This document shows, piece by piece, positions 15,799-30,297 of a stretch of 64,000 nucleotides of DNA. The notes beneath the pieces are model-generated. The model did not search any database. It had not been told where the DNA came from and saw only the letters and a program-made list of their open reading frames with translations. This DNA is from Candidatus Limisoma faecipullorum (GTDB lineage Bacteria > Bacteroidota > Bacteroidia > Bacteroidales > Muribaculaceae): assembly GCA_017694955.1 (NCBI GenBank), contig JADIMC010000019.1, positions 16,242-80,241 of the forward strand, in the 5' to 3' direction. Position numbers and translations under genes: made by a program. Positions within the stretch are counted from its first letter, which is position 1, and each line of letters opens with the position of its first letter.

Positions 15799-17694
15799 TC
15801 AAAACTCAAGATGGACTCCGCCTTCAAACGTGGCTTTAGGCATCGGATAACCGGCGTTAATCTCATAACGCTGCGCAAGCAGATTCTCGCCCCTCGCCCA
15901 TACCGACAGCCATTCCGTGGCACGAAAAGAGCCACGCACATTCCAAAGCACGAAATCCTCGGTCTGGGGTTTGTCGCCGACCGCAGTATAAAGTCCTGCT
16001 ATATACTGAATCCCGGAAGAAACATTCCAACGCCCTTTCGTGAAATTCGCCCCTGCATACAATTTATGCTCCGGAGCGGCAATAACAGGGCTTTTCATAT
16101 GCAAATAGCTGTAATTGGCATCGACCGACCAACATCTGTTAATCCGATATGCAGCCTGCAGCTCCACCCCGGCATTGTCAATTGCACCGGAATTCTGATT
16201 CAGCATACCACCATTGGGATTTGGCAAAGTCATAATAAGATTCTTCCCGTCAATATAAAACAGATTCAGCCCATACTGTAACCTGCCACCAAACAACCGC
16301 TGAGAAAATGCTATCTCATAATTCCACATACTCTCAGGTTTCAAATCAGGATTTTGCGGCGGAAACATATACATCTCCCGCAATATAGGATAGCGGAATC
16401 CTTTCGTTGCCGATGCCTTCAATTCCATATCCTTCGGCAAATGAAATGCCACACCAGCTTGAGGAATCCATTCTGTCCCGACACGCGAATGATGATCGAC
16501 ACGCAAACCGGCATTCAGCGTCAACCACCGGCTTATGTCCTGCCTGAAATCGACATAACCGGCTACTTCATTCTCATACTTGTCAACCAAATCAGAGCGA
16601 GTCCCGGCATTCTCCCCCTTTACATATTCCGTCCACGCCTCTCCACCATAACGGAACCAGTCAAAACCGAAAGTGATTCGGTTGCCTTTAAAAAATTGAG
16701 CGCTCTGGTAAAGCGACATGCCCATCATATTGTCAAAAGAATTAAACCGCCCGTCCTTAGGCGACTCTCCGGCACTTGGAGTATAACCGTCATTAATCCA
16801 ATGCTTTCCCCAATTGTAGAAAACACTCAACGCACCAGAAGTACGCTCATATTTGTTTTCCAATGCAAACGAAGCCACCCCGCGAGTGATTCGCTGGTCG
16901 CCTTCCAGCAACGGAGCTGAAACCGGACCGGGGTAAGTGGCATTAAAATGAGTCACATTCACATCGGCATATGTACCCCAATTATCAGCCAACTCATATC
17001 CAAGCTTTGCATAACCGCCATATTGCTCGAACTGCATATTGCCGCGGTGCCCGTCCGTACGGTTATAAGAGCCACTTACAACAGATGAAAAGCGGCCTTT
17101 ACGGATTCGGTTGGTCAATTCGGTCTCCAATGTATTATACGAGCCATACCCGGCGTGCAAATCCGTTTTCACACCATCTTCGTGCATTTTCCGGGTAACG
17201 ATGTTGACAACTCCGCCCATGGCATTCGAGCCGTAAAGCACGGAAGCCGGGCCGCGAAGCACCTCCACCCTGTCGGCCAGCAACGACTGGTAAGAGTCGG
17301 AAATCGGATGCCCGAAAATACCAGCGTATTGAGGATGCCCGTCGATAAGGACCATCAAACGCCCGCTTCCCCCACTCAATCCCCGCAAAGAAATTCCCCC
17401 GGCTGCTCCGTCCGACACTCCATAGCCCATCACACCTCGCGAAGTGACAAACAACCCCGGCACCTGCTCTGTGAGCACCGGCAAAAGCGACGGCTGAAGG
17501 CTTTGTTCAATTACAGAACGGTCAATCACCGAAACCGTCTGCGAAAGATGGCGCACATCGGTTTCATCCCGTGTTCCTGTAACCACGAGCTCACCCAAAG
17601 AACGGTTGACAGAAAGAGAATCCGCCTCCTCCGCCCGCATCGAAACAGCAGAAGGCAATATCACACAGCAAACAATAAATAATCTTCGTATCAT
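15799..17694 (-). CDS. TonB-dependent receptor
   Basis: Plug-domain motifs (LGELVVTGTR TonB box region, IEVLRGPASVLYGSNAMGGVVNIVT) and a barrel ending ...EGGVHLEF. ATG 17694 (MIRRLF...). Confidence 0.9.
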   Translation of the reverse strand: MIRRLFIVCCVILPSAVSMRAEEADSLSVNRSLGELVVTGTRDETDVRHLSQTVSVIDRSVIEQSLQPSLLPVLTEQVPGLFVTSRGVMGYGVSDGAAGGISLRGLSGGSGRLMVLIDGHPQYAGIFGHPISDSYQSLLADRVEVLRGPASVLYGSNAMGGVVNIVTRKMHEDGVKTDLHAGYGSYNTLETELTNRIRKGRFSSVVSGSYNRTDGHRGNMQFEQYGGYAKLGYELADNWGTYADVNVTHFNATYPGPVSAPLLEGDQRITRGVASFALENKYERTSGALSVFYNWGKHWINDGYTPSAGESPKDGRFNSFDNMMGMSLYQSAQFFKGNRITFGFDWFRYGGEAWTEYVKGENAGTRSDLVDKYENEVAGYVDFRQDISRWLTLNAGLRVDHHSRVGTEWIPQAGVAFHLPKDMELKASATKGFRYPILREMYMFPPQNPDLKPESMWNYEIAFSQRLFGGRLQYGLNLFYIDGKNLIMTLPNPNGGMLNQNSGAIDNAGVELQAAYRINRCWSVDANYSYLHMKSPVIAAPEHKLYAGANFTKGRWNVSSGIQYIAGLYTAVGDKPQTEDFVLWNVRGSFRATEWLSVWARGENLLAQRYEINAGYPMPKATFEGGVHLEF

Positions 17695-17715
17695 AAATCT
17701 GCAATTTTCACATTG

Positions 17716-17723
17716 CAAAATTA
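17716..17723 (-). promoter_or_regulatory. -7 promoter box TAATTTTG
   Basis: 21 nt upstream of ATG 17694. The ORF-track start 17718 lies inside the box. Confidence 0.55.
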
Positions 17724-17788
17724 ATACGTCAACCGATTTAACACACTACCTGTTTAACCGTATTACTAACCTTTTTTACAGAAGCCGT

Positions 17789-18004
17789 TCACTTTCCCTC
17801 GAAATCCTCATAAAGCGCAACCGGGCCATAGTGCCAATATTTCGTTTCTTCTTTCTCCAATTTCTTATAAGTGTCCGAATGATAATATGCCCGTAAAGCA
17901 TCCAACACCGAACCGCCTCTTTTATTTATATAAATACGCACGAACGAACTTGCCTTTCCGGGCAAAAGCAAATACAAGTTTTCCGATGTAATCTTCCTAT
18001 CCAT
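17789..18004 (-). CDS. DUF3791-like small protein
   Basis: 71 aa. ...YYHSDTYKKLEKEETKYWHYGPVALYEDF matches the pattern I recall for DUF3791. Confidence 0.65.
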   Translation of the reverse strand: MDRKITSENLYLLLPGKASSFVRIYINKRGGSVLDALRAYYHSDTYKKLEKEETKYWHYGPVALYEDFEGK

Positions 18005-18014
18005 TTATCATCTC

Positions 18015-18497
18015 TCACTTAATAATTCTCGCATCAACAAACGACAAACATTCCAACGAGCGTTCTGTATGAAACAACATCTGATCCACCAATTTATAGA
18101 CTTTCAACTCCTTCAAAAGTCCATCTTTATCCAATAACCCGCTCTCATATAATGCAAAAGCAGCATAAACACGGTCATTTGCCACCGGACCATATATCAA
18201 ATCATAGTCGTGATTGAAATCAGGATTCATACGATTACTCATCACGAAATCCAACCAAGCCTCTGATGGTGAATCAAACCGCAGCGTCATCATTTCCCCT
18301 GCCTTTTCTTCATCTAAAGCATAAACATTGACATAGCCAGCATTCAATTTCATAAGTTGCATCCGCCTCCGAGCCAACTGTTCCGCCTGATGAAAAGATG
18401 TGGTTGTATAAAAACCAGAACCATAATCCAATGTTCTTTCCGGTTGGATTATTCGCGGATTGCACACCACCTCTACACTACCATGATACAGCTCCAT
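18015..18497 (-). CDS. DUF3990-like protein (possible ADP-ribosyltransferase-like fold)
   Basis: 160 aa starting [11 protein letters not shown]..., with [10 protein letters not shown]. Its start codon shares one nucleotide with the upstream stop (TGATG at 18495-18499). Confidence 0.7.
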
Positions 18498-18715
18498 CAG
18501 TCATTCCTCCTATTTTCTATATATTCATCTATATCAGCCAATATCCATTCCGGACTTTGAGTATGCAACACCTCAAAATTATCAATTAAATATTCAGATA
18601 CTCCATATTTATCAAACAAATCCATAACAGCATCACCCGGCATGCCAACATACGTTTTGTAATTTTCTATACAAAACGACAAAAAATATGCAATATCCAA
18701 TTCATGCTTTGTCAT
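18497..18715 (-). CDS. DUF3791-like small protein
   Basis: [20 protein letters not shown]...[21 protein letters not shown] 18715 lies 18 nt downstream of the -7 box. Confidence 0.65.
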
Positions 18716-18732
18716 AAATACCAAGCCTTTTT

Positions 18733-18834
18733 GCAAATATAGCGAAAGTCGAGAGCAGAGACAAACGAAAACGGAGTTTTCAGGTTTGGCTATGCCGAGA
18801 CGCAGCCTATATTATCCAAATATACGCAAAATCC
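18733..18834 (-). repeat. Hairpin-plus-promoter repeat module (family member E1)
   Basis: gcaaatatagcgaaagtcgagagca... is shared with 55381 (gcaaatatacgcaaagtcgagagca) and 47254. A second degenerate head ccaaatatacgcaaaatcc is at 18816. Internal hairpin gaaaac-gga-gttttc. Confidence 0.6.
18734..18741 (-). promoter_or_regulatory. -7 promoter box TATATTTG (with TTTG 20 nt further upstream)
   Basis: The reverse complement of caaatata. The minus strand reads cgTTTGtctctgctctcgactttcgcTATATTTG. Confidence 0.6.
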
Positions 18835-18848
18835 ACCGGAAACTCAAA

Positions 18849-18884
18849 AAACAGGCGAACAGCGTTTAAGCTCCCCGCCTGTTT
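18849..18884 (-). terminator. Rho-independent terminator of the WG-repeat gene
   Basis: aaacaggcg pairs with cgcctgttt. On the minus strand it is followed by TTTTTTGAG. Confidence 0.65.
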
Positions 18885-18909
18885 CATTACCCAATTTTCT
18901 GTATGCTAA

Positions 18910-21576
18910 TTATTCACTCCAGAACTTTTCTGCATCAGTGGTGAGGTTATACATAAAATCACCGAGATTTTTCACAATGCTGTCAAACAGACTGCGGCTC
19001 TCGAACCAGCTTTCCGGTGGAGTCCAACGCACATCATCGCGTTTCTGCGACACTTTCAACGCACATCCGTTGAACATCCACGAAGGTATAAGCCACTCCG
19101 TATCACGCATACTGAACAATGAGAAAGGCGAGCTTTTCTTCTTCACCTTCAACCTTTCGTCATCAGAAAGCAACCACCCATAAGTAGGAGAAAAGCGCTC
19201 CATCTTGCCCAGCGTGAATTCTCCGGTCTCTTCGTTCACATCAAGCATCTCTATGCGATATCGTCCGGAAGAGACGGTAGCTACCGCGCTGCCGTTGAAA
19301 CTCATCAAGAAATTAAGATACAGATGCATCATCGGGTCAGGCAACTCGAAATTAATGCCGCCTACCATAAACTGTCCGCCATCCGCTACCAAATATTTCC
19401 TACCTCCATCATTGATGAAACCGGAAACACGCATAGGGACAAAGAAGAACTTGGCCTGCACACTACCCTCACCGGCTGAGCTAAGCATCGGAGCGACATA
19501 ATACTCCTCCGGATTGATTATCATAGTCAGGAATCCACTTGTATTCTCCCCATATGGTGAAGATATATTCTTACCAGCGTCTATCTCCAGATATGCGGTA
19601 GCAGGAATCATCATCGACGCGTCAGAAGGGTCCATGACATTTACAGGAGCCGACAGAACCACAGTCTTGTCAATAGCCTCTATGCTGTCTTTCTTGATGA
19701 AATGCGCCGTAAACAGAAGGTCCTCTCCTGTGACAGTGAATTGCGCGCCATTGCCGTCCGGAGTAACAAGCGGCGAATTACAGTCGATTCCCGACAATTT
19801 CCAGTTTTCGTTGGCCGTAGCTGTAATATTCACAGCATCGCCCAACTTATATTGGCCGCCACCGCTGACAGTACCTCCTTCCGGAGGATCAGCCACAACC
19901 GACACATTATATACCGGCTCGTCCACATCACGCGGTCCTTTCGGCTTTGTAACATAATTCTTCAGAATTATAGGATAAGGAATAGGTACCGGAACAGGAT
20001 TGCTGACAACTAATGTGTCAGGCGGAACAGGATCACCCGGTTCTGGTCCCGGTCCCGGCACAGGCGTCAGCACTGGAAAATACACCAACTCGTATCCGGG
20101 GTCCGGAATTGTCTCAGCCTCGGCATTAAACACTATCGTGAACTGCGCGGAAGCGTCGATGAAACCTTCAAACCACTTTGTATTCATTCCACGCTCATCA
20201 GACATTCCAATCCGGGCTTTGGCAATATAATCTTCAGTGAATGTCCCTATTGACCCGCCTCCCGGACGATTCTCCCTCGAATTCCATGTGCGTATCAGAA
20301 TCTGACCGTCAGGAGTGATGACAAACTGCCCGTTACCGTTAACAGACGCCACACCGGCACCACCGAACACAATACCGTCAGGAGTTATATCATTACGATC
20401 TATGCCGAATTTCTCCACAGTACCAACTTCCTTGAAAGAAGTGTCTATCACCGTCACATACTTATCCGCCGAATATTTCTCTTTATATACAAATGCATAG
20501 CCGTCGGTAAATGGAGTTGCGCTCGCATATTCCGCCGCCAGATTGCCGTTCCTGTCATAAAACTTGTCAACGCCCATTTTGCTGTCACGCCAGCAGAAAT
20601 ATCCGTCACGGTAATCGCTCACCTTGCCATAGCCGGTGAATATGCCGTCAAGCACAATCTTTCCCGTCTTGTCGATGACAGTCCAGTCATAACCTTTCTT
20701 TGTCTTAACAAGAGCAAGTCCGTCGCTGAATATCCGCGCTTCTTCAAACTGTGGTGCGATGACAATCTTACCTTTCCCGTCGATATATCCCCATTTTCCT
20801 ACTCCCATATCGTAGTGGGCGCGCAATCCGTCAGACAAAGGAGCGACGTTCCCGGCACCGGACGCCATACTGGAAGTATAGCCGCCCTGCTTCTTGACAA
20901 GGTGCGGATATACCTCCTCTCCTGCCGTGTTGATATACACCCACACTGAGCCGGTCTTGAAATCGCCGGTGTCCTTCAGCACCAACGCCAAACCGTCAAC
21001 AAAGTTGGAGCCCTGCGTATATTTCAACGACAACTCCTTCACCCGTCCGTCTTTGTAGATAATGGTCAACGGATATTTCTTGTCCCAGCTATTGCTTCCC
21101 ACTTGCTTCTCGCCTTTCACGAGGCAGGCTCCGCGGTCGAAGCGCGGATCTTGGTAGCGTCCAAGCCCTGACCATATATAGTCGAAAAGCATATCGCCGT
21201 TTTTCAGGAAAAAAGCATATTTGCCGTTGCCTTCATTATAAACGGAGAACACTCCGTCGTGAACATCCGAAACTTGCGCATAATCCGGCAAGCGGAGATA
21301 ACGGGTGTCGGGCGTAATACGTGGTATGCTGAACGAAGTGCCATTCCACACAACATCCTGTATCTTCGCCGGTTTGCCATCATTTGCCTGTCGATCCAGC
21401 TGCTTGTTTTCAGTTTCTTTCTTATCCTGTTGATTAGGATCCAGCAGTTTCTGAACTTTTTCGACTTCTTTGGTGACTTTATCCAAACCTTTGCTCAACT
21501 TCTTCAGAAACTGTGCATCGGCATCAAACGAGAAACTGACAGCAAGAGTCAATATTAGAAACCATAATTTTCTCAT
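18910..21576 (-). CDS. Secreted WG-repeat protein with Pro-rich linker, InlB-B-repeat-like domain and unknown C-terminal domain
   Basis: Signal MRKLWFLILTLAVSFSFDADAQ (ATG 21576). Repeated motifs such as GKWGYIDGKGKIVIAPQFEEARIFSDGLALV are the WG/KWG repeat. Also GGTVSGGGQYKLGDAVNITATANENWKL. Confidence 0.8.
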   Translation of the reverse strand: MRKLWFLILTLAVSFSFDADAQFLKKLSKGLDKVTKEVEKVQKLLDPNQQDKKETENKQLDRQANDGKPAKIQDVVWNGTSFSIPRITPDTRYLRLPDYAQVSDVHDGVFSVYNEGNGKYAFFLKNGDMLFDYIWSGLGRYQDPRFDRGACLVKGEKQVGSNSWDKKYPLTIIYKDGRVKELSLKYTQGSNFVDGLALVLKDTGDFKTGSVWVYINTAGEEVYPHLVKKQGGYTSSMASGAGNVAPLSDGLRAHYDMGVGKWGYIDGKGKIVIAPQFEEARIFSDGLALVKTKKGYDWTVIDKTGKIVLDGIFTGYGKVSDYRDGYFCWRDSKMGVDKFYDRNGNLAAEYASATPFTDGYAFVYKEKYSADKYVTVIDTSFKEVGTVEKFGIDRNDITPDGIVFGGAGVASVNGNGQFVITPDGQILIRTWNSRENRPGGGSIGTFTEDYIAKARIGMSDERGMNTKWFEGFIDASAQFTIVFNAEAETIPDPGYELVYFPVLTPVPGPGPEPGDPVPPDTLVVSNPVPVPIPYPIILKNYVTKPKGPRDVDEPVYNVSVVADPPEGGTVSGGGQYKLGDAVNITATANENWKLSGIDCNSPLVTPDGNGAQFTVTGEDLLFTAHFIKKDSIEAIDKTVVLSAPVNVMDPSDASMMIPATAYLEIDAGKNISSPYGENTSGFLTMIINPEEYYVAPMLSSAGEGSVQAKFFFVPMRVSGFINDGGRKYLVADGGQFMVGGINFELPDPMMHLYLNFLMSFNGSAVATVSSGRYRIEMLDVNEETGEFTLGKMERFSPTYGWLLSDDERLKVKKKSSPFSLFSMRDTEWLIPSWMFNGCALKVSQKRDDVRWTPPESWFESRSLFDSIVKNLGDFMYNLTTDAEKFWSE

Positions 21577-26145: not shown

Positions 26146-27375
26146 ATGAAACGACTGATACTTCTTGCCGCCATCAGCCTTATCGCGGCAATTTCATACG
26201 GATTCACCTACGACAACGGAAGGGCAAGCTTGTCGCCATATCCGGAATGCACAAGCATCACAGAATACCCAGACTCTCTCACTCCAATATTCATCAATCA
26301 CGTGGGCAGACACGGCTCACGTTATCCGGCAGGCTCATTCCACACTATGATGCTCAAAAAAGCCTTGGACGAAGCTGATTCCTTGAATACAATCACCCCG
26401 CTCGGCAAACAGCTGAAAGAAGAGACCGAGCGCGTGATTACCGCCACAGCAGGACGCTGGGGAGAGCTTGACACAATCGGAGAGAAAGAACACCGCGAAA
26501 TTGCCGGGCGTATGTACAAAAAATATCCGCAACTGCTCGACAGCGCAAACATATCCGCAATTTCCTCGGATTCGCCACGCAGCATAATGAGTATGTATTT
26601 CTTCACCCAGCAGCTTGCAAAATCTGCTAAAGAAATAAATATCACGACTGAATCGGGCAGCAAGTTCACACCTCTGATGCGTAACTATGAATTGGACGAA
26701 ACATATCAGACATACCGCAACGACACCGCATACACAGCCGCATACAACCGCTTTGCCGCGGCAAACATCCCGATTGAGCCGATTTTGCGAGTGCTGGGCG
26801 AAGAATATCCGCTCGACTATTCTACCGTATATGACCTCGCGCTGGCAGAATATTATGTATCAGCCGGAATGAACGCAATGGGACTGGAACACGATGCATC
26901 AAAATACTTCACCATCGACGAATACCACAAACTGTGGTCTGTTTTCAATTTCCGCCAATACCTGCTCTATTCTGCATCTTTGGCATCAACTCGCCCGGCG
27001 GAGATTGCCGCGCCGCTGCTGCAGAACATCGTTGCAACCGCCGACAGCGTTGTCACCGGCAAACTCCACATAGCCGCCAAACTGCGCTTCGGACACGCCG
27101 AGACGCTGATGCCACTGATGGCATTGATTCAAGCACCCGGATGCTACTACCTGACACACTACTACGACACTCTCGCCAACAACTGGAAAGACTTTGAAAT
27201 GTTTCCTATGGCGGCAAACCTGCAATTAGTATATTTCAAAGCGCCATCCGGGAAAATATATGTCAGGGCAGAATATAACGAAAAGCCCATACAACTGCTG
27301 CCTGGTGCCAAATCACCATACATTGACTGGAACGACCTCCGTCTGCGCTTTCTCGAATTGCTGCCACTGGAATAA
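26146..27375 (+). CDS. Histidine acid phosphatase, MINPP-like (multiple inositol polyphosphate phosphatase)
   Basis: RHGSRYP catalytic motif and an HAE proton-donor motif (FGHAETL). Signal peptide MKRLILLAAISLIAAISYG (ATG 26146). Confidence 0.8.
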   Translation: MKRLILLAAISLIAAISYGFTYDNGRASLSPYPECTSITEYPDSLTPIFINHVGRHGSRYPAGSFHTMMLKKALDEADSLNTITPLGKQLKEETERVITATAGRWGELDTIGEKEHREIAGRMYKKYPQLLDSANISAISSDSPRSIMSMYFFTQQLAKSAKEINITTESGSKFTPLMRNYELDETYQTYRNDTAYTAAYNRFAAANIPIEPILRVLGEEYPLDYSTVYDLALAEYYVSAGMNAMGLEHDASKYFTIDEYHKLWSVFNFRQYLLYSASLASTRPAEIAAPLLQNIVATADSVVTGKLHIAAKLRFGHAETLMPLMALIQAPGCYYLTHYYDTLANNWKDFEMFPMAANLQLVYFKAPSGKIYVRAEYNEKPIQLLPGAKSPYIDWNDLRLRFLELLPLE

Positions 27376-27378
27376 ATG

Positions 27379-28050
27379 TCAACGGAAAAAAATCACGGCA
27401 CATTTCTCTCTTTCCAACAAACTGTTGAAGTCCTCAAGCACACCATCTGTTGATTCTTGAGTCGCAAAACGGCATACCGGATATTTCTTCATAACGGATA
27501 TCGCCTTCCCATCAAGGCTTTTGTCTATTTTCTCATTACAACCGCTATGAAGGAACTGCCAAAGATATTCCGTATGCTTATCCCAAGCCGTATTGCCCAA
27601 CCAGACATTTTTTTTAGAACCTTTGCTGCGGAAATGAGCATACAAAATCAACCAAGTGCCAGAACTCTCAGGAGAAGCAAAAGTGTCAACATCCGTCAAA
27701 TGCTTACCCGGAACATCCGATATGGCAAAGCCGTCATCAGAAACCTGAAATACCGACATTTCGGCAATGCCACGCCTATATCCAAAATCAAAATCTCCCA
27801 TATAATATTCAAACAAGTATCCATAAAGGAAATCCCAACCCCACATTTCTGGGAATACTTTCAACCGGGCATAGTCATATATCCAATTGCCTGCCTGTAT
27901 GACATTCGACCCTAATTTCCTACCAACCAACATTGTAAAAGGACTTTTCTCCTTTATATAACCGACCATGCCAACTATTCTTTTTTGATATTCGCTAAGC
28001 AGTCTGAATGCCCTGCGTACATCCACAAAAGATTTCTCCAAATCAGTCAT
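27379..28050 (-). CDS. Hypothetical protein, partner of the PD-(D/E)xK protein
   Basis: 223 aa with no recognisable motif. Its ATG overlaps the upstream stop (ATGA at 28047-28050). Low GC. Confidence 0.7.
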   Translation of the reverse strand: MTDLEKSFVDVRRAFRLLSEYQKRIVGMVGYIKEKSPFTMLVGRKLGSNVIQAGNWIYDYARLKVFPEMWGWDFLYGYLFEYYMGDFDFGYRRGIAEMSVFQVSDDGFAISDVPGKHLTDVDTFASPESSGTWLILYAHFRSKGSKKNVWLGNTAWDKHTEYLWQFLHSGCNEKIDKSLDGKAISVMKKYPVCRFATQESTDGVLEDFNSLLEREKCAVIFFR

Positions 28051-28706
28051 TTTCCGAAAATTGATTTAATTACATTTATCGAATCTCTACATATTTCTTC
28101 CTTAACCACAAAAGAATCAAACCATTCAAGATAAAACATTCCATTCAACTTGAATGACAACATCACATTTCCAAGTATTCGCCGGCAAGACGATGTGTGG
28201 CAATCGGCATCATCAATTCTGTCCAGCCTATCCAAACAACCGCTTACTGACGCAAGCAAAGACAACCAACTGCACCTGTATACAGGAACAGACCTTACTA
28301 TAGATGGCTTTTTATTGCCATTTCCTCCCAAGGCAATAAAATATACATCCTTAACGCTGCCATATTCATTAAAATACGAACATATCTCATTTTCCCACTG
28401 TTCATAATATTGCCCATTACCATCAAATTGTTTAACCTCAACAATCACATCAAAATTTGAAAAGCGCAAAAACAAATCCGGCTCTACATATTTCAAATTT
28501 GTCGTATTATCAGCATTCCACCGGGGCCAGAACTCAAATGAATCAAGAACACCCGCAACATCTGGCAACTTTTCAGTCCCTCCACAACAAGATTTGACCA
28601 ACAATTCCCACAACAAATCATCAGGCAGCAACAACAAACTTCCAAGTATCGAAGACGTTTTCAAATCCTCAGATTGTGACTTGTTTTTATAACGAGCTTG
28701 CAGCAT
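28047..28706 (-). CDS. Putative PD-(D/E)xK-fold nuclease
   Basis: YVEPDLFLRFSNFDVIVEVKQF gives a D...E-x-K arrangement on predicted consecutive beta-strands. An acidic N-terminal helix (SEDLKTSSILGSLL) is present. ATG 28706 lies 20 nt downstream of a -7 box. Confidence 0.6.
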   Translation of the reverse strand: MLQARYKNKSQSEDLKTSSILGSLLLLPDDLLWELLVKSCCGGTEKLPDVAGVLDSFEFWPRWNADNTTNLKYVEPDLFLRFSNFDVIVEVKQFDGNGQYYEQWENEICSYFNEYGSVKDVYFIALGGNGNKKPSIVRSVPVYRCSWLSLLASVSGCLDRLDRIDDADCHTSSCRRILGNVMLSFKLNGMFYLEWFDSFVVKEEICRDSINVIKSIFGK

Positions 28707-28726
28707 AATCCAATAATTTATCGATA

Positions 28727-28734
28727 CAAATATA
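28727..28734 (-). promoter_or_regulatory. -7 promoter box TATATTTG for the two-gene operon
   Basis: The reverse complement of caaatata is 20 nt upstream of ATG 28706. Confidence 0.55.
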
Positions 28735-28824
28735 CAGCAATTCACTGACAACTTCAAAAAACGACAAAGAAAATGACACAGCAAATAAACATACAGGGTT
28801 AGGCATCAGTCCATATATTTTGCG

Positions 28825-28860: not shown

Positions 28861-30297
28861 ATGACAAGACATATTACGAAATTAGCGGCAATGCTGTTTG
28901 CCGTGTTGCTGCTTCCTCAGATACTGTTTGCAGGAAAAGTCAATGCAAAGGCGGCAGAAGATTTCGCGCAATCCAAAGCTATGCGCGGCGCAAAGGCCGG
29001 CGTTTGCGTAATCGATATGACAACCGGAGAAGTAGTGGCAAGCCTCAACGAGGACACCCCCCTCACCCCGGCATCAATCACAAAACTGATAACATCAGCT
29101 GCTGCAATAAAGGCATTGTCGCCCAACTACCGCTTCACCACAGAAGTCGTAATCGACGGATTAGTGGACCATGCCGGAGTGGTTGACGGCAACCTTATCA
29201 TCAACGCCGGACTTGACCCCACACTTGAATCACGTCATTTCCAGGAACACGAATCTTTCATCGTTGGCACAATTGAAGGATTGAAACGTCTCGGAATAAA
29301 GCGCATCAACGGCAAAGTGATAGTCAACGAAAGCGTCTGCCCCGAACAAGGAGTGCCTGCTGATTGGGAAGATGCCGATGTGACGGAAGACTACGGTGCA
29401 GGTGTGCACGCTTTGAACTATGCCGACAACCAATGCTCTGTGATATTCGACGTATCAGGCAAGAAAGCCATGATCATCGACACACTTCCACACCAAAGCA
29501 ACCTGAAAATACGCAACAACGTAAAAGTAACGACCGGACGTAAAAGCAATTGGACGCCATCAGCGACACGTAAAAAGAACAGTAACAACCTTATAGTATG
29601 GGGATACGTAAAACGGCAAGACGACCCCGTAGAATTGAAGACCACTATTCCCGATCCTGCCAACGCCCTGTGCTGCGACCTTACGGAAGCCATAGTTTGT
29701 GAAGGCATCCCGGTGATGAACCGAAATATTAAAAGCGGCAGCTACCGTCGCACCGTATATGAGCACCAGTCTCCTCTATTACAAGAGATTGCATCATCCC
29801 TGCTATTCCGCAGCGACAATATGTATGCCGAAGCCGTGCTAAGGGCGATAGCCTTGCATAACGGCACTTCCGCATCGCGCGAAATGGCATTGAGAAGCGA
29901 ACGGGCTATACTCGCCGACTGGGGAATCGACCTCAAAGGGCAAACAATCTACGACGGTTCAGGACTGGCGCGTACCAACCACTATTCGCCACACTTCCTC
30001 GCAACCATACTCACAGCAGCGGCCACCGACTCGCAAATCGGGCTATTATTTCCTACCCTCTTACCTGTATGCGGACAAGAAGGGACCGTCAAGAAACTGC
30101 TTAAAGATACTGCTCTGGATGGCAAAATCGCATTGAAATCGGGCAGTATGACACGGGTGCAATGCTATGCCGGCTACTATCCGGCAGGCAATCCGAAATA
30201 TGCCGTTGTAGTGATGGCGAATAATTTCAGCTGCAATTACGATGCTCTGAAAAAATCAATAGAGGACTTATTACTCGGACTTTTCACGCAAGAGTGA
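28861..30297 (+). CDS. dacB: D-alanyl-D-alanine carboxypeptidase/endopeptidase (PBP4, peptidase S13)
   Basis: SxxK motif PASITKL, a KSGSM (KTG-like) motif, and PBP4 length and layout. Confidence 0.88.
   Translation: MTRHITKLAAMLFAVLLLPQILFAGKVNAKAAEDFAQSKAMRGAKAGVCVIDMTTGEVVASLNEDTPLTPASITKLITSAAAIKALSPNYRFTTEVVIDGLVDHAGVVDGNLIINAGLDPTLESRHFQEHESFIVGTIEGLKRLGIKRINGKVIVNESVCPEQGVPADWEDADVTEDYGAGVHALNYADNQCSVIFDVSGKKAMIIDTLPHQSNLKIRNNVKVTTGRKSNWTPSATRKKNSNNLIVWGYVKRQDDPVELKTTIPDPANALCCDLTEAIVCEGIPVMNRNIKSGSYRRTVYEHQSPLLQEIASSLLFRSDNMYAEAVLRAIALHNGTSASREMALRSERAILADWGIDLKGQTIYDGSGLARTNHYSPHFLATILTAAATDSQIGLLFPTLLPVCGQEGTVKKLLKDTALDGKIALKSGSMTRVQCYAGYYPAGNPKYAVVVMANNFSCNYDALKKSIEDLLLGLFTQE

What the first reader, a model, noticed from the sequence alone, without database searches (positions are those of the whole stretch)
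27376..28734. Candidate novel two-gene nuclease module in a low-GC islet between conserved genes
Two minus-strand genes are translationally coupled (ATGA overlap at 28047-28050) and have a perfect TATATTTG box 20 nt upstream of ATG 28706. They fill the space between the MINPP phosphatase gene (stop 27375, only 3 nt away) and dacB. Composition differs sharply by hand count. G+C is 17/60 in 28081-28140 and 21/60 in 27901-27960. It is 39/60 in 27001-27060 and 32/60 in 29001-29060, which lie in the flanking genes. The upstream 219-aa protein carries ...YVEPDLFLRFSNFDVIVEVKQF.... This is the D-(x)n-E-x-K arrangement of PD-(D/E)xK nucleases, preceded by an acidic helix. A Cys/His-containing tail follows. 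The 223-aa partner has no motif I can recognise. There is no methyltransferase, helicase, ATPase, integrase or antitoxin-like HTH nearby. So it does not fit an R-M system or any named defence system I can identify by eye. A horizontally acquired nuclease plus an unknown partner is the typical signature of a small anti-phage or abortive-infection module, or of a toxin-immunity pair.
Basis: partly seen in the sequence, partly recalled or inferred. Interest (0 to 1): 0.75.

Follow-up and report, generated by a model that had tools for sequence, protein, structure and literature searches.

The report
Catalogued candidate nuclease defence pair (PDC-M15)
A 1.4-kb low-GC insert between two housekeeping genes of a chicken-gut Bacteroidales bacterium carries a restriction-enzyme-like nuclease and a partner of unknown fold; the pair belongs to PDC-M15, a candidate anti-phage system already listed in PADLOC but never tested.

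Summary
Two minus-strand genes, A (28706-28047, 219 aa) and B (28050-27379, 223 aa), overlap by ATGA. They lie in a 1,439-bp segment (27375-28813) with 39.1% G+C against 46.1% for the window. The segment is missing from the same MINPP-dacB junction in two related Candidatus Limisoma/Muribaculaceae genomes.

A is a PD-(D/E)xK nuclease by three lines of evidence. E13, P76, E90 and K92 are invariant and D77 is 114/115 across 115 homologues at 30-44% identity. The predicted core is alpha-beta-beta-beta-alpha-beta. The top Foldseek hits are nearly all nucleases of this fold. B belongs to Pfam PF27385 (PM0109); no function or fold could be assigned.

The pair is not novel as a kind. Both proteins match PADLOC's PDC-M15A and PDC-M15B over their full length (E 2e-62 and 9e-39). 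PDC-M15 is an untested candidate found by Payne et al. 2024 by "guilt by embedding".

Related loci support a role against phages or other mobile elements. A and B are adjacent in 96 of 97 loci, across 53 neighbourhoods. These include sites next to SIR2-pAgo, KwaB and NERD-UvrD, inside a type I R-M operon, on conjugative elements, and between terminase and portal in phage contigs.

Function remains inferred. This is a new member of a known candidate family, of moderate interest.

The parts
27375..28813 (.). Inserted low-GC islet of 1,439 bp. It replaces 37 bp of intergenic DNA present in the related genome L007.
   Evidence: blastn of the junction shows that homology to L007 and L008 stops at about window 27374 and resumes at about 28814. 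G+C is 0.391 against 0.461 for the window. No A or B gene is present in L007-L014.
28047..28706 (-). Gene A (PDC-M15A): PD-(D/E)xK nuclease of 219 aa, with a C-terminal helical domain at about residues 147-217.
   Evidence: PADLOC PDLC04455, E 2.4e-62, full length. AF2 model pLDDT 82, pTM 0.80, core H15-24/E54-59/E78-82/E85-91/H101-115/E120-126. Foldseek hits include Bax1, McrC, R2 RLE, Nt.BspD6I, NucS, PspGI and Can2.
28431..28484 (-). Codons for the catalytic motif E75-P76-D77 ... E90-V-K92.
   Evidence: P76, E90 and K92 are invariant; D77 is 114/115 and E75 is 111/115 in 115 homologues at 30-44% identity. D77 precedes strand 78-82, E90 lies in strand 85-91 and K92 follows it.
28665..28670 (-). 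Codons for E13-D14, acidic residues just before helix 15-24.
   Evidence: E13 is 115/115 and D14 is 114/115.
27379..28050 (-). Gene B (PDC-M15B; Pfam PF27385 'PM0109'): 223 aa, function unknown. It has a long N-terminal helix followed by a mixed alpha/beta body.
   Evidence: PADLOC PDLC04463, E 9.2e-39. PF27385 is precomputed on all homologues. AF2 pLDDT 65. No fold match was found. Conserved residues: V11, R12, R16, Q22, W..WD73, S99, Q102, D105, D106, G107, S130, D202.
28047..28050 (-). ATGA stop/start overlap, implying translational coupling of A and B.
   Evidence: Read directly from the sequence. The same overlapping A-then-B layout is seen in homologous loci.
28727..28734 (-). TATATTTG, a candidate Bacteroidetes -7 promoter box 20 nt upstream of A's ATG. 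A TTTG at 28755-28758 is a candidate -33 element.
   Evidence: The single motif match is not significant by itself.

Best explanation
The islet is a horizontally acquired copy of the two-gene cassette that PADLOC catalogues as PDC-M15. Gene A encodes a metal-dependent PD-(D/E)xK endonuclease. Gene B encodes a PF27385 protein made in step with A through the ATGA overlap. I infer that A and B form a complex in which A is the nucleic-acid-cutting effector. B would be the fast-evolving regulatory or recognition subunit that keeps A off host DNA, or directs it to invading DNA. With no methyltransferase present, self/non-self discrimination would have to come from B. B could do this by recognising a feature of foreign DNA, as in type IV restriction, or by sensing an infection cue that unleashes A, as in abortive infection. 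Shown here: the identity of both families, the nuclease fold and its invariant catalytic residues, the strict A-B pairing, the mobility of the cassette, and its location in defence islands and mobile elements. Inferred only: complex formation, DNA as the substrate, the role of B, and protection against phage.
For: Family identity: PDC-M15A at E 2.4e-62 and PDC-M15B at E 9.2e-39, both over the full length. PDC-M15 is CAS_00081, 'Assign as candidate', derived from genes embedded in BREX, DISARM or type I R-M systems. Nuclease: E13, P76, E90 and K92 are invariant, and D14, D77, E75, Q99 and Q103 are at least 96% conserved. The canonical secondary-structure order is present. Foldseek top hits are nearly all PD-(D/E)xK nucleases. 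Sub-threshold Pfam hits of family members go to REase-ARP, NERD, RE_AlwI, AHJR-like and PDDEXK_15. Pairing: 96 of 97 loci with room downstream of A carry B on the same strand; the exception, L035, has a divergent B. Acquisition: the islet is absent at the same junction in L007 (dacB 93% aa identity) and L008 (85%), and its G+C and GC3 are low. Company kept: 53 different neighbourhoods. One copy lies inside hsdM-hsdS-Fic-A-B-hsdR on a Vibrio plasmid. Others lie directly after SIR2-pAgo (6 loci), after KwaB (5 loci), and after DUF1848/NERD-UvrD/REase-ARP on a conjugative element (20 loci). Neighbours also match type I R-M, AbiLi, AriA, GajB-like helicase and DRT-associated models. Copies also sit on CTnDOT-like elements and between terminase and portal in phage contigs. 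B diverges much faster than A: in proteobacterial copies A scores E 1e-40 while B keeps only the N-terminal helix and the WxWD motif.
Against: No experiment exists for any PDC-M15 member, and no paper mentions it. Of the other PDC candidates whose tests I read about, some protected and some did not: 3 of 7 PDCs worked in one study and 0 of 2 in another. B has no recognisable fold or domain, so its role is a guess. Foldseek TM-scores for A are low (0.2-0.3) and E-values are only about 1e-3. In this window the pair is not in a defence island; its neighbours are housekeeping genes. The only A-B fusion found (P0019) is a singleton on a 1.6-kb contig and could be an assembly frameshift. Defence systems described after 2023 could not be screened, apart from the full-text search for 'PDC-M15'.
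Confidence: 0.5

Rival explanations
1. The pair is a toxin-antitoxin or addiction module. A is a nuclease toxin and B its protein antitoxin, and the main role is to stabilise the mobile elements or islands that carry it. Any phage defence would be a by-product.
For: The cassette sits on conjugative transposons, plasmids and phage-like elements. It has two genes, tightly coupled, with no other component. B evolves fast, as immunity or antitoxin proteins do. One plasmid copy lies near a VapBC pair.
Against: The putative antitoxin lies downstream of the toxin, is as large as the toxin, and has no DNA-binding domain. In this window the cassette sits in a chromosome with no mobile element to stabilise. 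Homologues are embedded in and adjacent to dedicated defence systems. The two readings overlap, because many abortive-infection systems are toxin-antitoxin systems.
Confidence: 0.2
2. The pair has a DNA-repair or recombination function for mobile elements. It would act as a structure-specific nuclease with an accessory factor, alongside UmuDC and UvrD-type helicases.
For: UmuD-UmuC lies next to the pair in two different arrangements (L001-006 and L032-033). UvrD-like helicases lie directly or nearly downstream in L026 and L032. Foldseek hits include the repair nucleases Bax1 and NucS/EndoMS.
Against: UmuDC and UvrD-like genes are common cargo of the same elements and islands, and the UvrD-like neighbours score as GajB or NERD-UvrD defence models. 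The pair is absent from sister species, has a patchy distribution and a foreign base composition. None of this fits a core repair role.
Confidence: 0.1
3. The cassette is a selfish, homing-type endonuclease. It would spread by cutting empty sites and being copied in by repair.
For: The insertion is precise, with no recombinase gene, and lies exactly between two conserved genes; it starts at the MINPP stop codon and leaves the dacB promoter intact. In phage contigs it sits between terminase and portal, a typical niche for free-standing homing endonucleases. No target-site duplication is present.
Against: An obligatory, equally large second gene is not a feature of known homing endonucleases. 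With 53 unrelated neighbourhoods there is no single conserved target. Embedding in R-M operons and adjacency to pAgo and Kiwa point elsewhere.
Confidence: 0.07

Closest known systems
PDC-M15 (PADLOC-DB v2.0.0; cassette CAS_00081, FAM_00087>>FAM_00103, Payne et al. 2024, bioRxiv 10.1101/2024.01.29.577857)
   Same: Both proteins match the A and B models over their full length. Gene order, adjacency and strand are the same.
   Different: Nothing differs at the family level. This copy comes from a chicken-gut Muribaculaceae genome and is at most 47% (A) and 44% (B) identical to any homologue found outside its own species. It sits alone between housekeeping genes, not embedded in another system. 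PDC-M15 itself has no published function, domain annotation or test.
Two-subunit or modification-dependent restriction nucleases of the PD-(D/E)xK fold (McrBC's McrC; heterodimeric R.BspD6I)
   Same: The catalytic fold and motif are shared. These proteins are among the best structural matches. Like type IV enzymes, the pair works without a cognate methyltransferase.
   Different: B is not a GTPase or AAA+ protein like McrB and is unrelated to A. No DNA-reader domain is recognisable. TM-scores are only 0.2-0.4.
Shedu (SduA, DUF4263) and NERD-type single-protein PD-(D/E)xK defence nucleases
   Same: These are defence-island nucleases with the same catalytic core. One family member gives a weak SduA hit exactly over the motif (E 0.004), and two give weak NERD hits.
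   Different: No hit reaches significance. Shedu works as a single protein with an N-terminal sensor domain, whereas here a separate PF27385 partner is always present.
Type II toxin-antitoxin pairs with nuclease toxins
   Same: Both are two-gene, translationally coupled, mobile cassettes, possibly with one protein inhibiting the other.
   Different: Gene order and sizes are atypical, no DNA-binding antitoxin domain is present, and no TA model in PADLOC or Pfam matches.

Membership tests
PDC-M15 (PADLOC candidate system) | A protein matching a PDC-M15A HMM | tested here: met
   PDLC04455, E 2.4e-62, residues 2-211 against profile positions 2-217 of 226.
PDC-M15 (PADLOC candidate system) | A protein matching a PDC-M15B HMM | tested here: met
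   PDLC04463, E 9.2e-39, residues 2-217 against profile positions 6-198 of 207.
PDC-M15 (PADLOC candidate system) | The two genes are adjacent in the order A then B (FAM_00087>>FAM_00103) | tested here: met
   ATGA overlap on the same strand. The cassette definition is in Table S8. The PADLOC program with its own thresholds was not run.
PD-(D/E)xK nuclease superfamily (protein A) | Core alpha-beta-beta-beta-alpha-beta fold | tested here: met
   The AF2 secondary-structure order is correct (pLDDT 82). Most of the Foldseek PDB hits with E below 0.1 are PD-(D/E)xK nucleases, though with low TM-scores of 0.2-0.4.
PD-(D/E)xK nuclease superfamily (protein A) | Catalytic D ... (D/E)-x-K on strands 2 and 3, conserved across the family | tested here: met
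   D77 is 114/115; E90 and K92 are 115/115. P76 gives a literal 'PD...ExK'.
PD-(D/E)xK nuclease superfamily (protein A) | Metal-dependent phosphodiester cleavage | not testable with these tools
   This needs a biochemical assay.
PD-(D/E)xK nuclease superfamily (protein A) | Significant match to a curated family model (Pfam or NCBIfam) | tested here: not met
   The window protein gave no hit with E up to 1. Family members gave only sub-threshold hits. No PDB sequence match was found.
Pfam PF27385 'PM0109' (protein B) | Match to the family model | tested here: inconclusive
   PF27385 is precomputed for the identical protein P0009 and for all listed homologues. The local Pfam copy lacks this model and gave no hit.
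Type II restriction-modification system | A cognate DNA methyltransferase encoded beside the nuclease | tested here: not met
   The neighbours are His_Phos_2, Peptidase_S13, EamA and TPR. The islet holds only A and B.
Validated anti-phage defence system | Experimental protection against phage | not testable with these tools
   No paper mentions PDC-M15. The authors state that all 145 PDCs are untested.
Defence-island or embedded gene (guilt by association) | Homologues recur next to or inside known defence systems | tested here: met
   One copy lies inside a type I R-M operon. Others lie next to SIR2-pAgo, KwaB and NERD-UvrD. Neighbours also match type I R-M, AbiLi, AriA, GajB-like and DRT-associated models. 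No background rate was computed.
Type II toxin-antitoxin | Toxicity of one protein is neutralised by the other, and the antitoxin has a DNA-binding domain | not tested
   No HTH, RHH or AbrB domain was detected in either protein. Toxicity needs an experiment.
Free-standing homing endonuclease | A single nuclease gene inserted at one conserved target site | tested here: not met
   A second gene is always present, and the cassette occupies 53 unrelated neighbourhoods.

The most novel reading that the evidence does not exclude
PDC-M15 is a working anti-phage or anti-plasmid system with a new logic. A PF27385 protein of a fold not yet seen in solved structures would act as the sensor or specificity subunit that gates a minimal PD-(D/E)xK nuclease. 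Phages and conjugative elements would carry the same cassette as a weapon against competing elements.
Probability: 0.4. Interest if true: 0.55.

Novelty: new member of a known kind. Interest (0 to 1): 0.35.

Why it matters
PDC-M15 is one of 145 candidate defence systems that PADLOC reports in genome surveys with no function attached. This analysis gives it a testable anatomy. The effector is a nuclease with named catalytic residues (E13, D77, E90, K92). The partner is always present, evolves fast, and keeps a conserved N-terminal helix. The cassette is very mobile, and its neighbours include pAgo, Kiwa and type I R-M. The Limisoma copy is compact at 1.44 kb and carries its own promoter, which makes it convenient to clone. 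If the system protects, it adds a small two-protein nuclease system from gut Bacteroidales, a group whose phage defences are little studied. If it does not, that helps calibrate how far 'guilt by embedding' predictions can be trusted.

Tried and rejected
- Pfam, NCBIfam and PHROGs scans of both proteins gave no usable hit.
- PDB sequence and profile searches with small and large alignments gave nothing significant. The best result was E 0.15 to TFIIF-beta over A's C-terminal helices, which I treat as chance.
- Foldseek of the B model against PDB and BFVD gave no match below E 0.06. Repeated hits to type III secretion chaperones at E about 1 are a lead only, and the model is poor at pLDDT 65.
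- I tested whether B is a degenerate paralogue of A. hhalign gave probability 0.1%, so I rejected this.
- I tested whether A has a Cys/His zinc site in its tail. The residues are not conserved, so I rejected this.
- I looked for terminal repeats or a target-site duplication at the islet ends. Only chance-level repeats turned up: one 9-nt inverted pair, 27355-27363 and 28735-28743.
- The sigma-70 promoter and terminator scans did not exceed the shuffled controls.
- tblastn of A against 50,697 GenBank phage records gave no match. IMG/VR gave five contigs.
- The A-B fusion P0019, which would argue for physical interaction, is a singleton on a 1.6-kb contig, so I gave it little weight.
- The literature search for 'PDC-M15' returned 0 papers, and 'PM0109' returned only unrelated hits.

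Full report
**1. The observation**

B runs 27379..28050 (223 aa). A lies in an ORF running 28047..28784, with an ATG at 28706 that gives 219 aa. The ATG at 28706 is the real start. All homologues begin with the same 'ML'. An independent gene call on another contig of the same species also gives 219 and 223 aa.

A's TGA and B's ATG share the tetranucleotide ATGA at 28050-28047. TATATTTG lies at 28727-28734 on the minus strand, 20 nt before the ATG. A TTTG lies 20 nt further upstream. This is the layout I know for Bacteroidetes promoters. The octamer pattern TAnnTTTG occurs 60 times in the window against 45.5 expected, so a single match proves little.

The composition shift is real. The islet is 39.1% G+C against 46.1% for the window (sd 2.7% for same-size windows), which places it in the lowest 0.3%. 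GC3 is 0.365 for A and 0.415 for B, against 0.50-0.58 in five neighbouring genes.

**2. The segment is an insertion**

The organism is Candidatus Limisoma faecipullorum, a member of the Muribaculaceae. The proteins are MBO8475649.1 (A) and MBO8475648.1 (B), both annotated 'hypothetical protein', and they appear on 83-97 contigs.

Two relatives carry the same trpS-TPR-MINPP-dacB-EamA gene order but lack A and B. They are Ca. L. gallistercoris (dacB 93% identical) and an uncultured Muribaculaceae bacterium (85%). DNA homology to these genomes stops at window 27374, the MINPP stop codon, and resumes at 28814, just upstream of the dacB promoter box. So 1,439 bp in the window replace 37 bp in the relative.

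The segment contains no recombinase gene, and its ends carry no repeats beyond chance. I found no homologue more than 47% (A) or 44% (B) identical outside this species. The donor is therefore unsampled.

**3. Protein A**

Exhaustive profile search found 819 cluster representatives (50% identity) with E up to 1e-3. In 115 of them, at 30-44% identity to the window protein, the following residues are conserved:

| Residue | Conservation |
|---|---|
| E13, W60, P76, E90, K92 | invariant |
| D14, D77 | 114/115 |
| E75 | 111/115 |
| Q99 | 111/115 |
| Q103 | 112/115 |

The motif is a literal 'PD ... ExK'. The AlphaFold model (pLDDT 82, pTM 0.80) has this order of elements: helix 15-24, strand 54-59, strand 78-82 (D77 at its start), strand 85-91 (holding E90, with K92 just after it), helix 101-115, strand 120-126. 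This is the canonical core. A four-helix C-terminal domain follows.

Foldseek against the PDB returns Bax1, McrC, the restriction-like endonuclease of R2 retrotransposons, Nt.BspD6I and its small subunit, NucS/EndoMS, PspGI, AF1548, Can2, RecE, Hjc and AddAB. E-values are about 1e-3 and higher, and TM-scores are only 0.2-0.4.

No curated Pfam or NCBIfam model matches. Individual family members give sub-threshold hits to REase-ARP, NERD, RE_AlwI, AHJR-like and PDDEXK_15. One gives a weak SduA hit over the motif.

I take the nuclease fold as well supported and the nuclease activity as inferred. The Cys and His residues in the tail are not conserved.

**4. Protein B**

All homologues carry the precomputed Pfam family PF27385 'PM0109'. 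This model is absent from the local Pfam copy, and I found no literature on it.

The model is poor (pLDDT 65). It shows a long N-terminal helix (residues 3-34) and a mixed sheet. Neither the PDB nor BFVD gives a fold match, and profile searches of PDB sequences find nothing. B is not related to A.

When phage-borne and fused copies are included, the invariant positions are V11, R12, R16, Q22, the WxWD motif ending at D73, S99, Q102, D105-D106-G107, S130 and D202.

In proteobacterial copies A is still recognised at E 1e-40. B there keeps only the N-terminal helix and the WxWD motif (E 1e-7). So B evolves much faster than A.

**5. The pair is already catalogued**

Against PADLOC-DB v2.0.0, A matches PDC-M15A (E 2.4e-62) and B matches PDC-M15B (E 9.2e-39), both end to end.

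PDC-M15 is cassette CAS_00081 (FAM_00087>>FAM_00103) in Table S8 of Payne et al. 2024. A count of 241 is listed beside it, which I read as its number of instances, and the entry is marked 'Assign as candidate'. It was found because members are embedded in BREX, DISARM or type I R-M systems. The authors state that all 145 PDCs are untested.

No paper in the searchable library mentions PDC-M15. Tests of other PDC candidates have had mixed results. Three of seven tested PDCs protected in one study, and none of two in another.

**6. Independent context analysis**

Across loci fetched through A or through B, 96 of 97 with room downstream of A have B next to it on the same strand. The one exception has a divergent B. 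The pairs lie in 53 distinct neighbourhoods.

Examples of these neighbourhoods:

| Context | Loci |
|---|---|
| hsdM-hsdS-Fic-A-B-hsdR on a Vibrio rumoiensis plasmid | L035 |
| DUF1848, NERD-UvrD, PDDEXK_13/REase-ARP, A-B, TraX, coupling protein, on a conjugative element | 20 loci |
| Directly after a SIR2-pAgo fusion | 6 loci |
| Directly after KwaB | 5 loci |
| After traQ on CTnDOT-like elements | L029-031 |
| HTH_3, A-B, UmuD-UmuC on an element with a serine recombinase and Sak-type recombinase, inserted at different chromosomal sites | L001-006 |
| Between large terminase and portal in phage contigs | L015-019; genes identified in L018 |
| Bare two-gene islets between housekeeping genes, as in this window | L027, L028 |

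I scanned 131 non-redundant neighbour proteins from 33 contexts. The recurrent PADLOC hits were type I R-M, AbiLi, AriA, GajB-like helicases and DRT-associated proteins. I did not compute a background rate, so this is qualitative support.

**7. Mechanism**

The best reading is a two-protein nuclease system directed against invading DNA. A cuts. B is made in step with A and, I infer, binds it, either restraining or directing it.

No methyltransferase is present. Discrimination must therefore come from B or from a trigger. That implies either a modification-dependent (type IV-like) mode or an abortive-infection mode. I cannot separate these two.

The rivals are:
- A toxin-antitoxin or addiction role, which overlaps with abortive infection.
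- A repair or recombination accessory role, suggested by the repeated UmuDC and UvrD neighbours.
- A homing-type selfish nuclease, suggested by the recombinase-free precise insertion and the terminase-portal niche.

Each is weighed in the structured fields.

**8. Verdict**

It is wrong about novelty, because this is a new member of a known but uncharacterised candidate family. Interest is moderate. The main value is a concrete, testable anatomy for PDC-M15 and a compact natural copy to clone.

Noticed in passing
window 17789-18736 (-): A second low-GC patch (about 0.395-0.40 over 17500-19100) holds a DUF3791 gene (18500-18736, E 1.7e-19) immediately upstream of a DUF3990 gene (18018-18497, E 3.5e-45), plus a 71-aa ORF at 17789-18004. 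This looks like another small accessory two-gene cassette, lying between a TonB-dependent receptor-like gene and a 907-aa surface protein.
   Followed up: partly
proteins P0030, P0038, P0039, P0087 (A-family representatives, 329-387 aa): In these proteins the A nuclease is fused to a C-terminal domain of about 150 aa that matches no PDC-M15B model. This suggests an alternative partner domain that has replaced B.
   Followed up: partly
protein P0019 (422 aa): This is an apparent natural A-B fusion, with PDC-M15A over residues 6-211 and PDC-M15B over 209-414. It is a singleton on a 1,611-nt contig, so it may be a frameshift artefact at the ATGA overlap.
   Followed up: yes
L001-L006 (11351-13090) and L032-L033 (6693-8495 in L032): UmuD-UmuC genes lie beside the A-B pair in two different arrangements: A-B-UmuD-UmuC, and UmuD-UmuC-x-A-B. 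UvrD-like helicases of 1,000-1,056 aa lie just downstream in L026 and L032. Whether the link is functional or only shared cargo is unexplained.
   Followed up: partly
L018 6096-10583 (IMG/VR contig): In L018 the A-B pair sits between the large terminase and the portal gene; four related phage contigs (L015-L017, L019) also carry the pair. Upstream in L018 lie a ParB-methyltransferase fusion, an amidoligase and a gamma-glutamyl cyclotransferase.
   Followed up: partly
L039 4888-7986; L050 3639-4673: In human-gut and rumen metagenome contigs, a 1,033-aa SIR2-pAgo fusion (L039) and a KwaB homologue (L050) lie immediately upstream of A-B pairs. I did not check whether KwaA is present next to KwaB.
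   Followed up: no
window 27375-28813: GC3 is strongly foreign, yet no homologue above 47% identity exists outside this species among 5.8 billion protein clusters. The donor lineage is unsampled.
   Followed up: partly
window 27355-27363 and 28735-28743: A perfect 9-nt inverted repeat (GAATTGCTG / CAGCAATTC) lies near the two ends of the islet. By my rough estimate, about five such pairs are expected by chance in 1.6 kb, so I take it as coincidence.
   Followed up: yes
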